A stretch of DNA of 64,000 bases from Candidatus Shapirobacteria bacterium (GTDB taxonomy: Bacteria; Patescibacteriota; Microgenomatia; UBA12405). The position numbers were made by a program, and so were the translations under genes. Where the stretch lies: assembly GCA_041661765.1 (NCBI GenBank), contig JBAZTV010000002.1, positions 139,130 through 203,129 on the forward strand, in the 5' to 3' direction. Below, in pieces: positions 8,454 through 15,992 of the stretch (position 1 is the first letter of the stretch; every line of letters begins with the position of its first letter). A model generated the notes under the pieces. The model was given only the letters and a program-made list of their open reading frames with translations, had not been told where the DNA came from and searched no databases.

Positions 8454-11400
8454 TCAAAAGAAAAATTTAGAAAATATTTTTTTAATATAATCAAACAATT
8501 TATTTGAATTATCACTTTGTTTTTGTATCTCAGTGGGAGTCACTCCCTTAGGAGTACTCTCAGGAATAATCAAATTTGAATTGAGCGGCTTTTTAATTCT
8601 TTTATTAACTGTCGAAGCCCCAAGAACATTTGGATAAAAACCAACAGCTTGATTAACATAACTACCACCTTTAGTCACAACAACAGACACTTCATTAGAA
8701 AAATCACCAGGGGTACAACCATTACCTGCTCTTACTTTAAAGTAATATCTATTCTTAATAGATAAACCTTTTACCGTATAAGATAATGTGTCTCTACCAC
8801 CAACATTAGGATTTCCATAAATCATTTGACCTGGCTTATTACCATATGCCACCAAATAATAAGTTACCGATCCTTTAGCAGGCTTCCAAGTTAATGTTAC
8901 CTCATTAAATCCAGTAACACGAGCTGAAATTAACACTGGAGCACTTTCCGGTTTAGAATCATTACAAACAGAAGAAGAACATGACGACGATGAATTATTT
9001 GAAGAAGATGAACTAGATGAATTATTTGAAGAAGATGAACTAGATGAATTATTTGAAGAAGAACTTGCACTATTTTTAGTTAATCCAGCAAAAGTAGTAA
9101 AATGATATGTAAAAATTTTAGTATTAATACCATTACTTATATAACATTCTCCAGGAAATATCGGATTATTTGGATTATCATATGAACCTCCACACTTTTG
9201 TGAAATTCTAGTCCAATTATTAGATCCAGCAGGTCTATAAGCCACATCACCAGTAACATTATTAAGAATAATAGAAATTGGCTTATCAAAAAGAAGGATT
9301 ACACTAGGTGAACCTACCTCAATAGCTGTATTATTAACAGAAAATCCAGATGGAGCATTACCACTATTAGAAATTGACTTTGGTGGTTCAATTTTTCCAT
9401 TCCAATTTAATGGGCCCAAAATTGTAGTTGAATTTGGAATTTCAACTTTAATATTATTCAGACTATTATTAGTCAAAGTAATAATACTTTCATTATTAGA
9501 TGACTGTAATGTCACTGCTTTTTCAACCTTAATACTTTTATCACCAACATTTTTAACTTCAGTTAAATTAACACCAGCACTTAAGTCACCCAAATTATAG
9601 TTATTTAAATTTACTTCAAATCCATCAACAGTAACTTTATTACCAGAAACAGTATTAATTCCTGAGGTTAAATCTAAAGAACTTTTGTTATCTAACTTAA
9701 TTTCATTAGACATTGTTAATTGACCTTGGTCACTAACCAATGGTTTAGTGTTTTCAATTGATTGGGTAATATTATAACTAAAGATATTTGAACTCATATT
9801 TCCAAGTAAATCACATGCGATAACAGAAATTATTTGAGAATGATCAATTAAAAAAGGAGCCGTATAAATAGTACCAGAATTACAATTATCAAGCTTTACA
9901 CTATTACTATACTTAATAATCGAACTACCATTACTACTTAATGTAATTGTTTGAGAAGTTGCATATGTTCCAGAAATAATACTAGCAGATGGTATTGATG
10001 GGGGACTCTTATCAATATTACTAATAGTCACCGTTTCAGTAGTCACATTGCCAACACTATCAGTAGCAATAAAATCAAAAGTTCCATTTTGTGTAAATAT
10101 GTGTGAATTAGTATTTAAGCTACCTTCATTTGTTGTAGCCGTAACAGTAATATCTTGATTAGTTGGATTATGATTGTAATCATTAATAGTAATAATTGGA
10201 GCAATATTATCAATGATATTAATATTGGCAGTAATAATATTAGAACTTACATACCAATTATTAGGATTATCAAAATTACCATCTTCAGCTCCAATTAGTT
10301 GAGCAGAGATATTCATTGATTTACCAGCTAAATTAGTTTTAGGAGTAAAAATAAAACGAACTTTATAAGTTCCATTTGAATAATTTACCAAAGACCTTCT
10401 ATCAATATTCGTAAAATCACTTAACCAAAAACTAGTTTGATTATCACCCAAAGTTAAAGTACCTAATACAGTTTGAGTATCATCATTGTTAATTTTTATA
10501 GCAGTAATAATATAGTCTTTTAAATTAATTCCAACGGGAGGAGAAAAATCTACTTTTGTATCAACTAAATATTTTGAATCTAATCCAGAAAAATCACTAA
10601 AACCAATAATACTATCAATAGTTTGTAAAGAATTAGGAGTAATCGAATAATTAGTCTGATTATTAACAAAACTAATTGTTGACCCTATGATTTTAAGATT
10701 AACATTTGCAATATTAGAAGAGTTATACCAATTATTTGGATTATTAAAATCTTCATCTTTAGCTACAACCGCTACTGATGATACTTGAATTGATTTACCG
10801 GCTAAATTTGCAGGAGCAGAAATATAAAAATAAGCCGTATAATTTTTATTTGATCTCGAAACCAAACTTGGTCTATCTTGTAAAATAAAATCTTTTAACC
10901 ACAAGGTAATTTGATTATCGTTTAAAACAATTGGAATAAAAGTAGTCGTTGCTCCATTGCCCATATTTACAAAACCATTAATAACTAAACCTTTTAGATT
11001 CACATCTGATTGAAAAGATATTTTTACATCTACTTTATATTCAGAACTAAAACCAGTCGAATCACCAAAATTAATAGAGCTACTAATAATAATTGGTTGA
11101 TTTACTGCCGTAACATAATTCGCTTCACCAAAAGAAATCTGAGGTTTAGTATCAACAACATTTATTGTTCTTATAACTTGAATCGCCGTATTATTAGAAG
11201 AATCTACAGCGTCGTAATAAATAACATAAGAACCTACATTTTTAGTATCAACAGTACCAGTAATTATAACTTTTAAGTCATTATCATAATTATCAAATGC
11301 GATAGCACCAGCATCAATATAAGTAGAACCAATGTTAATATTAATTACAGAATCACCAATTAGAGTGATAATTGGACTAGTAGTGTCAACTGTAATAGTC

Positions 11401-15992: not shown

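What the first reader, a model, noticed from the sequence alone, without database searches (positions are those of the whole stretch)
8454..15992. 2512-aa secreted giant protein built from at least 7 copies of an uncharacterised module of about 155 aa, encoded antisense inside the glycosylation island
The recurring module has the motifs GLDSKYxVDTxVTL, NLKDYxI, LGxLTLxDNQTxFWLSDF, RxSLVxxSNxxY and GAExxNFxNxxNWYxSSN. It does not resemble a named domain I recognise. MBG-like, Ig-like and FN3-like segments and a 60-aa Thr/Pro-rich N-terminal linker are also present. The module motifs contain many NxS/T and S/T-rich sites. The protein is flanked by an LtaS-like transferase, a PMT-like GT-C protein and about 11 GTs. 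It is a strong candidate for a heavily glycosylated cell-surface, S-layer-like or adhesin protein, possibly mediating host attachment in an episymbiont.
Basis: partly seen in the sequence, partly recalled or inferred. Interest (0 to 1): 0.6.

Follow-up and report, generated by a model that had tools for sequence, protein, structure and literature searches.

The report
Giant repeat-built surface protein, Shapirobacteria
This is a real, intact gene for a 2,509-residue secreted, adhesin-like surface protein of an ultrasmall Patescibacteria bacterium, built partly from seven copies of a very rare, unnamed Ig-like domain; it is an interesting but fairly ordinary member of a large family of such proteins, and nothing shows that it is glycosylated.

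Summary
Window 8454..15992 (-) is one ORF, and its real start is the ATG at 15983 (2,509 aa). It holds seven copies of a ~155-aa module, plus MBG, Ig-like and FN3 domains, a signal peptide and a Thr/Pro-rich linker. The module matches no Pfam, NCBIfam or PDB sequence, and only 17 of 1.84 billion representative proteins hit its profile. AlphaFold gives a confident (pLDDT 92) all-beta sandwich that resembles Gram-positive pilin and adhesin stalk domains only generically.

The protein is public, from a Candidatus Shapirobacteria MAG, named only 'MBG domain-containing protein'. It belongs to a Microgenomates-wide family of giant surface proteins with a conserved leader, N-terminal domain and C-terminal block, and variable middles. 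This copy lacks the family's C-terminal membrane anchor.

The glycoprotein reading is not supported. N-X-S/T sequons match composition. The ortholog sits among type IV secretion and mobile-element genes, and 55 family loci show no consistent context.

New findings: gene conversion between modules 2 and 5, and a strand-composition flip showing that the 5' two-thirds of the gene was recently imported.

Verdict: a new member of a known kind, of modest interest.

The parts
8454..15983 (-). Coding sequence of the giant protein (2509 aa from the ATG at 15983; stop codon 8454-8456). The mechanical ORF runs to a TTG at 15992.
16032..16059 (-). Promoter-like site (TTGTAA-16-TACAAT). It lies inside the ~70-nt upstream stretch that is conserved with the Shapirobacteria ortholog locus.
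   Evidence: a consensus match only
15876..15983 (-). Signal peptide (MIKTKSAKKFIAILANISLLLNSFTPFLFIAQPVYA|EE). Its hydrophobic core is conserved across the family.
15675..15875 (-). Thr/Pro-rich linker (about 67 aa, 48% Thr+Pro).
15273..15674 (-). Family-conserved N-terminal domain (WTFEKVELNKEY...HFTIFI). It has no Pfam hit, and 62 of the 90 homologs retrieved share it.
14757..15251 (-). Module copy 1 (the most divergent; aa 248-412).
14283..14756 (-). Module copy 2 (aa 413-570). Its central ~200 nt is 98.5% identical to copy 5.
13809..14282 (-). Module copy 3 (aa 571-728).
13353..13808 (-). Module copy 4 (aa 729-880).
12873..13352 (-). Module copy 5 (aa 881-1040).
12120..12872 (-). Three beta-rich segments that look Ig-like or FN3-like but have no Pfam hit (aa 1041-1291).
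   Evidence: no family assignment; read from the sequence
11673..12119 (-). Two MBG_2 domains (PF18676, 110.5 bits).
11436..11621 (-). FlgD_ig Ig-like domain (PF13860).
11157..11369 (-). Bacterial surface Ig-like domain (PF16403/DUF5011). Two boundaries fall here: the end of nucleotide homology with the ortholog (11342) and the change-point in strand composition (about 11186-11414).
10689..11156 (-). Module copy 6 (aa 1613-1768), absent from the ortholog.
10215..10688 (-). Module copy 7 (aa 1769-1926), the copy that was modelled (pLDDT 92.4).
9063..9545 (-). Family-conserved C-terminal domain (aa ~2150-2310; GNAPSGFSV...YRPAGSNNW...).
8958..9062 (-). Ser/Asn-rich low-complexity linker.
8682..8942 (-). 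Fibronectin type III domain (PF00041), part of the conserved C-terminal block.
8457..8681 (-). C-terminal tail. It keeps the family 'GF..VLG' motif but ends (..KLFDYIKKIFSKFFF) where relatives continue into a TM helix and a basic tail, so no membrane anchor is present.

Best explanation
The gene encodes a Sec-exported, elongated, adhesin-like cell-surface protein of about 265 kDa from a Candidatus Shapirobacteria (Patescibacteria, Microgenomates) bacterium.

The seven ~155-aa modules are a previously unnamed, very rare sequence family with an Ig-like beta-sandwich fold. Together with the MBG, Ig-like and FN3 domains they most likely form a long stalk, and possibly a multivalent binding array, that projects from the cell and contacts other cells or surfaces.

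The protein is one member of a lineage-wide family of giant surface proteins. The family shares a leader, a Thr/Pro linker, an N-terminal domain and a C-terminal block (domain, FN3, 'VLG' motif, TM anchor). The middle parts are exchanged by recombination. In this gene the 5' two-thirds is a recent import, modules 2 and 5 undergo gene conversion, and the membrane anchor has been lost.

Shown: the anatomy, the fold class, family membership, purifying selection and the recombination signatures.
Inferred: surface location, the stalk or adhesive role, and the ligand.
For: Anatomy:
- The ORF and its seven modules.
- A single N-terminal hydrophobic segment, with an AXA-like site, and no other TM segment.
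- Adhesin-type Pfam domains: MBG_2, Bact_surface_Ig-like, FlgD_ig and fn3.

Module fold and rarity:
- AF2 model with pLDDT 92.4 and pTM 0.85, all-beta.
- No sequence hit in Pfam, NCBIfam or PDB.
- 17 hits among 1.84e9 representative proteins, 6 of them at E <= 1e-10.
- Distant copies sit on secreted S8/PA subtilases, on a beta-helix protein and on small secreted multidomain proteins. The module is therefore a generic extracellular accessory domain.

Family:
- 62 of 90 homologs share the N-terminal domain, and nearly all end in a TM anchor with a basic tail.
- 55 further metagenome loci encode the N-terminal domain.

The gene is functional:
- The same gene in the same context occurs in three other samples.
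- dN/dS is 0.31 overall and 0.18-0.31 in the modules.

Recombination:
- The central tract of modules 2 and 5 is 98-98.5% identical within a genome but ~90% between genomes.
- GC skew at four-fold sites is +0.67 in the 5' part, against -0.73 in 21 neighbouring genes (p = 2e-67). The change-point falls at the homology breakpoint with the ortholog.

Literature: surface-associated putative adhesins are among the essential functions found in a cultivated Saccharibacterium (PMC11665869).
Against: - No recognised ligand-binding (adhesive) domain was identified.
- The fold similarity is generic (sequence identity < 12%, Foldseek TM <= 0.5) and cannot assign a function.
- This copy lacks the family's C-terminal TM anchor and has no LPXTG motif or other known sorting signal. 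It may be released rather than cell-bound.
- The conserved N-terminal domain could not be modelled (pLDDT 42.6).
- There are no expression, localisation or binding data.
Confidence: 0.6

Rival explanations
1. The protein is a heavily glycosylated, S-layer-like surface glycoprotein. Its glycan is made by the surrounding island and transferred by the Wzy_C-family protein or the GT-C-like membrane protein. This would resemble S-layer glycoproteins whose structural gene sits next to an slg cluster.
For: - The gene is embedded in a Wzx/Wzy-type cluster with 10 GTs, Bac_transf, a Wzy_C-family protein (the family that includes O-oligosaccharyltransferases; my own knowledge) and a polytopic membrane protein.
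- The Thr/Pro-rich linker is of the kind that is often O-glycosylated (inference).
- The 3' third of the gene carries the local strand-composition signature, so a family member has been resident in this island for a long time.
- A second family member, P0043, also lies beside a Wzx/Wzy/GT cluster, and so do L029, L038 and L039.
Against: - Sequons are not enriched over composition.
- The NQT sequon in the module motif is not conserved in distant modules.
- The ortholog has no glycan genes nearby.
- Only 8 of 55 family loci have any glycan gene within reach, and only 3 have a Wzx.
- There is no SLH or S-layer domain.
- The cluster is equally well explained as capsule or cell-wall polysaccharide synthesis.
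Confidence: 0.15
2. The protein is a type IV secretion or conjugation-associated aggregation adhesin, working like PrgB of pCF10. It would be carried on or exchanged by a mobile element and would mediate the cell-cell contact needed for DNA or effector transfer.
For: - In the Shapirobacteria ortholog locus the gene lies between recombinase, VirD4/TraG-like, Replic_Relax, DUF2958 and Fic genes on one side and T4SS-pilin-like, VirB6-like and PrgI-family genes on the other.
- The imported 5' part of the window gene is 86% identical in nucleotides to that ortholog.
- One other family locus, L024, has Replic_Relax and DUF2958 nearby.
- A T4SS is essential in a Saccharibacterium (PMC11665869).
Against: - No T4SS gene occurs in the 64-kb window.
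- Only 1 of 55 family loci shows mobile-element genes, and none of six inspected family contexts has a T4SS.
- There is no sequence homology to PrgB or to its adhesin domain.
- The module is absent from the plasmid and phage collections.
Confidence: 0.12
3. The protein is a released (non-anchored) polysaccharide-binding protein. The modules would act as carbohydrate-binding units that recognise the polymer made by the surrounding cluster, or a host envelope glycan.
For: - This copy lacks the TM anchor.
- The top Foldseek hits include the N-terminal beta-sandwich of GH123 glycosidases.
- Distant modules are appended to secreted hydrolases, as carbohydrate-binding modules often are.
- The gene lies within a polysaccharide locus.
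Against: - No CBM family matches by sequence.
- The GH123 N-domain is not an established binding module (my own knowledge).
- The structural scores are weak.
- The residues conserved across the family (D45, W90, G78, R) could equally be structural.
Confidence: 0.1
4. The seven-copy ORF is an assembly artefact, or the gene is a decaying pseudogene.
For: - A public variant, P0001, is exactly three modules (468 aa) shorter.
- Short-read contigs break inside the repeat.
- The C-terminal anchor is missing.
Against: - The ortholog has the same five N-terminal modules in the same order.
- An identical 2509-aa protein is deposited from a 276-kb contig.
- The P0001 junction lies in the 148-nt exact repeat shared by modules 2 and 5, as expected if the repeat was collapsed.
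- There is no internal stop in 7.5 kb, and dN/dS is 0.31.
Confidence: 0.03

Closest known systems
Fibrillar adhesins and pilins of Gram-positive bacteria built from CnaA/CnaB or DEv-Ig stalk domains (e.g. CppA, BcpA, SpaD, Antigen I/II C-domains, Ace/Cnm N2)
   Same: - Giant Sec-exported proteins with tandem Ig-like beta-sandwich domains.
   Different: - No sequence similarity and no Pfam CnaB/Cna hit.
- The Lys and Asn that are invariant in the seven local copies are not conserved in distant family members, so no isopeptide triad is supported.
- No LPXTG motif.
- Relatives are anchored by a C-terminal TM helix instead.
PrgB aggregation substance of Enterococcus faecalis plasmid pCF10
   Same: - A surface adhesin encoded next to Gram-positive-type T4SS genes, which is the situation of the ortholog.
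   Different: - No sequence homology.
- The window copy is not near any T4SS gene.
- No polymer-adhesin domain and no LPXTG motif.
S-layer glycoproteins whose gene adjoins an slg glycosylation cluster (e.g. SgsE of Geobacillus stearothermophilus) and serine-rich repeat glycoproteins (my own knowledge)
   Same: A large surface-protein gene lying beside or inside a glycosyltransferase-rich cluster that includes a Wzy_C-family protein.
   Different: - No S-layer, SLH or long Ser-rich repeat regions.
- No accessory Sec genes among the window ORFs that were scanned.
- The context is not conserved in the ortholog or across the family.
- Glycosylation is unproven.
Unnamed family of giant Microgenomates/Patescibacteria surface proteins (public names: 'MBG domain-containing', 'HYR domain-containing', 'Ig-like domain-containing protein')
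   Same: It shares the leader, the Thr/Pro linker, the N-terminal domain (63-72% identity) and the C-terminal domain + FN3 + VLG block.
   Different: - Only this ortholog group carries the 155-aa module. No module was found in 55 family loci or in the other 86 homologs.
- This copy lacks the TM anchor.
Giant1-5 extracellular proteins of Apilactobacillus kunkeei (PMC12863079; seen only as title and abstract)
   Same: Very large extracellular surface proteins in a small genome.
   Different: - A different phylum.
- No relationship was tested here, and the paper was not read in full.

Membership tests
MBG domain-containing proteins (Pfam PF18676 MBG_2; the public name of this protein) | A match to MBG_2 above the gathering score. 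| tested here: met
   110.5 bits against a cutoff of 25, two stretches. NCBI gives the same name to the identical protein P0018.
Microgenomates giant surface-protein family (unnamed) | A conserved leader, Thr/Pro linker and N-terminal WTFEKVELNKEY domain near the N-terminus. | tested here: met
   63-72% identity to 10 family members. The A4 HMM hits 62 of 90 homologs, always near the N-terminus.
Microgenomates giant surface-protein family (unnamed) | A conserved C-terminal domain, then SAPVCND-FN3, then the GF..VLG motif. | tested here: met
   40% identity to the ortholog over aa 2151-2458. The block is shared with 22 homologs, and the motifs are visible.
Microgenomates giant surface-protein family (unnamed) | A C-terminal TM helix followed by a basic tail. 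| tested here: not met
   The C-terminal hydropathy score is 0.08, against 1-3 in relatives. No alternative frame restores an anchor, and P0001 has the same tail.
Fibrillar adhesin-like proteins (stalk repeats + adhesive domain + anchor) | Tandem stalk-type beta-sandwich domains in a secreted protein. | tested here: met
Fibrillar adhesin-like proteins (stalk repeats + adhesive domain + anchor) | A recognisable adhesive (ligand-binding) domain. | tested here: inconclusive
   No known adhesive domain was found in Pfam or NCBIfam. The N-terminal domain is a candidate but could not be modelled.
Isopeptide-bonded CnaA/CnaB pilin or MSCRAMM domains | A sequence match to the Cna-type families, and a conserved Lys-Asn/Asp plus Glu/Asp triad. 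| tested here: not met
   There is no Pfam hit at E <= 10. K123 and N141 are invariant only among the seven local copies and are lost in distant members. Residue distances in the model could not be read with these tools.
Sortase-anchored (LPXTG) surface proteins | A C-terminal LPXTG-like motif, then a hydrophobic segment and a basic tail. | tested here: not met
   There is no LP.[TSA][GNAS] motif anywhere in the protein, and no NCBIfam sorting-signal model matches.
Serine-rich repeat glycoproteins | Long Ser-rich repeat regions and an adjacent accessory Sec system (SecA2/SecY2/Asp) with GtfA/B. | tested here: not met
   Only a 35-aa Ser/Asn linker is present. None of the 30 window ORFs scanned is a Sec component, but the remaining ORFs were not scanned.
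S-layer (glyco)proteins | An SLH or other S-layer anchoring or lattice domain. | tested here: not met
   No such Pfam or NCBIfam hit.
S-layer (glyco)proteins | Covalent glycan on the mature protein. | not testable with these tools
   This needs glycoproteomics. The indirect indicators (sequon enrichment, conserved context) are negative.
PrgB-type T4SS-linked aggregation substance | Encoded within a conjugative T4SS operon. | tested here: inconclusive
   True for the ortholog locus L001. Not true for the window or for 54 of 55 family loci.

The most novel reading that the evidence does not exclude
The Microgenomates giant-protein family would be a recombination-driven, variable partner- or host-recognition system. 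Its conserved leader/N-domain and C-terminal block would serve as fixed export and anchoring ends and as recombination handles. The middle cassettes would be swapped between genomes, sometimes on T4SS-bearing mobile elements. In this reading the 155-aa module is a ligand-binding (envelope-glycan-binding) cassette. Its only other carriers are secreted proteases of large-genome, high-GC bacteria, which would reflect gene exchange between the episymbiont and its host lineage.
Probability: 0.1. Interest if true: 0.7.

Novelty: new member of a known kind. Interest (0 to 1): 0.33.

Why it matters
How Patescibacteria attach to and recognise partner cells is an open question, and large surface proteins are prime candidates. 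This locus contributes four things:
- A clean, high-confidence new Ig-like domain family that could be added to the domain databases.
- A description of a lineage-wide family with fixed ends and exchangeable middles.
- A worked example of recent recombination in such a gene, seen both as gene conversion and as an imported 5' part detected from strand composition.
- A caution that gene neighbourhood, here a glycan island, is a poor guide to function for these mobile, mosaic genes.

None of this overturns current views. It gives concrete targets for proteomics and binding studies.

Tried and rejected
- The search for homologous proteins with the module alignments A1 and A2 found nothing. The word index misses this N/S/T-rich domain. 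The exhaustive representative search and the full-length query did work.
- The full-length protein found nothing in JGI metagenome contigs.
- The afdb50 fold library was unavailable.
- AlphaFold on the conserved N-terminal domain failed (pLDDT 42.6), so that domain got no fold search.
- P0001 could not be located on a contig.
- The cluster look-up gave no taxon names for the distant module proteins. Their host is known only as a 4.87-Mb contig with 57% GC in the 13.7-kb locus read.
- Isopeptide-bond idea: rejected at family level, because the candidate Lys and Asn are not conserved.
- N-glycosylation sequon idea: rejected as compositional.
- A hidden frameshifted TM anchor: not found.
- Phage or plasmid origin of the module: no match.
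- Third-position GC skew was first computed on all codons and then redone on four-fold sites only, to remove amino-acid effects.
- The literature searches found no paper that describes this family.
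Full report
**1. The observation**

The window holds a single uninterrupted minus-strand ORF at 8454..15992, 2512 codons from a TTG. The true start is almost certainly the ATG at 15983. An identical 2509-aa protein starting MIKTKSAKK is deposited by NCBI and JGI (P0018), and the ortholog starts the same way.

A profile built from the repeats finds seven copies of a ~155-158-aa module, at aa 248-412, 411-572, 571-728, 727-882, 881-1040, 1613-1768 and 1767-1926. 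Per-copy E-values are 1e-55 to 4e-75 and pairwise identity is 26-73%.

Pfam confirms two MBG_2 domains, FlgD_ig, Bact_surface_Ig-like and fn3. There is one N-terminal hydrophobic segment with a VYA|EE site and no other TM segment. The linker that follows is 67 aa and 48% Thr+Pro.

The neighbourhood is as described. It contains an LtaS-like sulfatase-family protein, 10 GT2/GT4 genes, a Bac_transf initiating transferase, a Wzx flippase, a Wzy_C-family protein, UDP-glucose dehydrogenase, an epimerase and nucleotidyltransferases. The dcw cell-wall genes follow.

Three corrections are needed:
- 'Antisense' simply means the minus strand, which four adjacent genes share.
- The 'PMT-like GT-C' ORF (4559..5962) is a polytopic membrane protein with no family hit.
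- N-X-S/T sequons (70) match the compositional expectation of 62.7 +/- 6.6.

**2. What the module is**

By sequence it is unnamed. It has no Pfam hit at E <= 10 beyond noise, no NCBIfam hit and no PDB sequence hit.

An exhaustive HMMER search of 1.84 billion representative proteins found only 17 hits at E <= 1e-3, of which 6 are at E <= 1e-10. Three of the 17 look spurious on low-complexity repeats.

So the module is a new sequence family with a common Ig-like beta-sandwich fold. It does not map confidently onto a named family.

Across 19 diverse copies only D45, W90, G78, mostly the Arg, and the 'QT.FWLSDF' core stay conserved. The Lys, the Asn and the NQT sequon that are invariant locally are not conserved. 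This argues against a conserved isopeptide bond or a conserved glycosylation site.

Distant copies sit at the C-terminus of secreted S8/PA subtilases, on a NosD/beta-helix protein, and at the N-terminus of small secreted multidomain proteins. At least one of these comes from a 4.87-Mb contig, with 57% GC in the 13.7-kb locus read. The module is thus a generic extracellular accessory domain with a sparse and disjunct distribution. It is absent from the plasmid and phage collections.

**3. Whose gene it is, and its family**

The only relative among 185,579 species-representative genomes is in a Candidatus Shapirobacteria MAG (L001). NCBI assigns the identical protein to Candidatus Shapirobacteria as an 'MBG domain-containing protein'.

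The ortholog is 2344 aa. It is 79% identical over aa 4-1620, which includes modules 1-5 in the same order. After that it diverges: it has no modules 6-7 and is 40% identical in the C-terminal block. It ends in a TM helix.

The full-length search also showed that dozens of 1400-2200-aa Patescibacteria/Microgenomates proteins share three features with the window protein:
- the leader (LAN.SLLLNSF.PFLL..AYA), the Thr/Pro linker and a ~125-aa N-terminal domain at 63-72% identity;
- a C-terminal domain + SAPVCND-FN3 + 'GF..VLG' block;
- in nearly all, a C-terminal TM helix with a basic tail.

Their middles differ: beta-helix, HYR, Big_13, DUF5011 and others. Of the 90 homologs, 62 carry the N-terminal domain. 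A pattern scan found 55 further loci in JGI metagenomes. None of these carries the 155-aa module.

The window protein stops (..KLFDYIKKIFSKFFF) exactly where relatives such as P0092 (..LMDFIKKYSWWWLIILLII..) enter the TM helix. No other frame restores an anchor. There is no LPXTG motif and no named sorting signal.

**4. Context**

The glycan-island context does not travel with the gene.

In L001 the ortholog is flanked on one side by a serine recombinase, a VirD4/TraG-like coupling protein, Replic_Relax, DUF2958 and a Fic-HTH protein. On the other side are T4SS-pilin-like, VirB6-like and PrgI-family genes.

Six other family members sit in assorted contexts. One is next to a Wzx/Wzy/GT cluster, one is next to a sortase and a SpaA-type pilin, and the others are among housekeeping genes.

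I screened the 55 family loci with the window's glycan genes and with L001's T4SS and mobile-element genes. Eight loci have any glycan gene, three have a Wzx, two have three or more glycan genes, one has Replic_Relax+DUF2958 and one has Fic. Neither 'glycosylation' nor 'T4SS' is therefore a family trait.

In this species, however, the context is stable. Three other samples hold the same genes on both sides.

**5. Integrity and evolution**

The short-read contigs from those samples end at about aa 499 and aa 946. Both positions lie in the stretch shared by modules 2 and 5, which contains a 148-nt exact repeat. The public 2041-aa variant P0001 is exactly 468 aa (three modules) shorter, and its junction lies in that same repeat. 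P0001 is most likely a collapsed assembly, though a real recombinant is not excluded.

dN/dS against the ortholog is 0.31 overall and 0.18-0.31 in the modules, so the gene is under purifying selection.

Two recombination signatures emerged.

*First, gene conversion.* The central ~200 nt of modules 2 and 5 are 98.5% identical in the window and 98.0% identical in L001, but only ~90% identical between the two genomes. The flanks of these modules follow orthology instead. This is concerted evolution.

*Second, a strand-composition flip.* The genome has a strong strand asymmetry. At four-fold degenerate sites, all 21 neighbouring genes on either strand have a GC skew of -0.52 to -0.95 on the window + strand (pooled -0.73). 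The first ~1520-1600 codons of the giant gene have +0.67 (G128/C25; p = 2e-67 against the neighbours). The last ~900 codons have -0.47, like the neighbours.

The maximum-likelihood change-point lies at window ~11186-11414. It coincides with the end of nucleotide homology to L001 (11342) and with the start of module 6.

The simplest reading is as follows. The 3' third (modules 6-7, the Ig domain and the C-terminal block) has long resided here. The 5' two-thirds (leader to DUF5011, including modules 1-5) was imported recently by recombination, from a copy that lay in the opposite orientation with respect to replication. This is inference. It assumes that the skew is replication-linked. A Microgenomates paper reports such an asymmetry (PMC7143001), but I saw only its title and abstract.

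**6. How it most likely works**

Shown:
- a Sec-type leader;
- about 20 beta-rich domains, seven of them a new Ig-like module;
- membership of a family that is normally membrane-anchored at its C-terminus;
- purifying selection and active recombination.

Inferred:
- The protein is exported.
- In anchored relatives the FN3 and linker cross the wall, and the array projects the conserved N-terminal domain outward.
- The modules act as stalk elements and perhaps as multivalent binding elements that contact other cells or polymers.
- In this anchor-less copy, retention (if any) must rely on something else, for example the amphipathic tail or binding to the cell-wall polymer made by the surrounding locus. 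Otherwise the protein is released.

I put 0.6 on the 'fibrillar adhesin-like surface protein with Ig-like stalk modules' explanation. The rivals are:

| Rival | Confidence |
|---|---|
| Substrate of the glycan island / S-layer-like glycoprotein | 0.15 |
| T4SS-linked aggregation adhesin | 0.12 |
| Released polysaccharide-binding protein | 0.10 |
| Artefact or pseudogene | 0.03 |

**7. Comparison and novelty**

Functionally and architecturally the protein resembles Gram-positive fibrillar adhesins and pilins. It fails the membership tests for Cna-type isopeptide domains, LPXTG proteins, SRRPs and S-layer proteins. It is a member of the MBG-domain class and of an unnamed Microgenomates family, apart from the missing anchor.

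The protein itself is already public under a generic name. The module, the family description, the gene conversion and the chimeric strand signature are new observations. They are new details of a known kind of thing: giant, modular, fast-evolving surface proteins.

A review notes that predicted adhesins are among the essential functions of a cultivated Saccharibacterium (PMC11665869). The general idea is therefore established. Interest: 0.33.

Noticed in passing
window 8457-15983 (change-point ~11186-11414): The gene has a chimeric strand-composition signature. GC skew at four-fold sites is +0.67 in the 5' ~4.6 kb and -0.47 in the 3' ~2.7 kb, while 21 neighbouring genes on both strands show -0.73. 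The switch coincides with the end of nucleotide homology to the Shapirobacteria ortholog. This implies that the 5' two-thirds was imported recently.
   Followed up: yes
window 14283-14756 and 12873-13352 (modules 2 and 5); L001 10248-10733 and 11658-12137: Concerted evolution. The central ~200 nt of modules 2 and 5 are 98-98.5% identical within each genome but ~90% identical between genomes, while the flanks follow orthology. The window holds a 148-nt exact repeat here.
   Followed up: yes
P0001 (public 2041-aa variant); contigs L003, L005, L006: A deposited variant lacks exactly three modules, with its junction inside the module 2/5 repeat. Independent short-read contigs end at that repeat. 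The likely cause is assembly collapse, but a real deletion polymorphism is not excluded.
   Followed up: partly
window 8390-8500: The protein ends just before the point where family members have a TM anchor. The in-frame sequence after the stop (SIL*ILNHLLSCFL...) is hydrophobic and may be a decayed anchor.
   Followed up: partly
window 5961-6056 (palindrome 5980-6008); L001 16566-16661: A 96-nt patch is 81% identical between the two genomes, outside the giant gene. It holds a near-perfect 13-nt inverted repeat (AATAATCACATCA ... TGATATGATTATT; one mismatch in the window copy, perfect in L001) just upstream of the window's HTH-Fic gene. In L001 it lies next to IS200/IS605-like TnpA remnants. 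It could be an operator or a transposon end.
   Followed up: partly
whole window (all genes): There is a very strong strand asymmetry at synonymous sites, independent of gene orientation (four-fold GC skew about -0.7 on the + strand over 60 kb). A similar asymmetry was reported for another Microgenomates genome (PMC7143001; title and abstract only).
   Followed up: partly
L001 1178-8566 and 17234-19402: The ortholog contig carries a compact mobile-element or T4SS set: serine recombinase, VirD4-like, Replic_Relax, DUF2958, Fic-HTH, a 114-aa VirB2-like pilin, a VirB6-like protein and PrgI. Its strand skew is heterogeneous, which is consistent with an integrative conjugative element in a Patescibacteria genome.
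   Followed up: partly
P0003, P0004, P0005, P0007, P0012, P0015 (distant module proteins): These secreted proteins carry a similar short C-terminal motif at or within about 10 residues of the end (YLPFISN, FLPIVNP, FLPSIRK, YLPVVNK, FLPFVRS, SLPLVRR). It could be an unrecognised sorting signal.
   Followed up: no
window 27771-29177: The Wzy_C-family (O-antigen ligase/polymerase-like) ORF has a Thr/Pro-rich extracytoplasmic stretch (TITITPTATPTSIP...SPTPTI) that resembles the giant protein's linker.
   Followed up: no
window vs L001, giant gene aa 103-240 and 1038-1285: Synonymous divergence is mosaic. dS is ~0.14 in the N-terminal domain and in the Ig/FN3 segment, against 0.3-0.87 elsewhere. 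This suggests further recent exchange of sub-segments.
   Followed up: no
L013 1236-9873: Next to the family member P0032 lies a 2685-aa SpaA/CLIPPER-type protein followed by a sortase. Some of these Patescibacteria therefore also have sortase-dependent pilus-like proteins.
   Followed up: no
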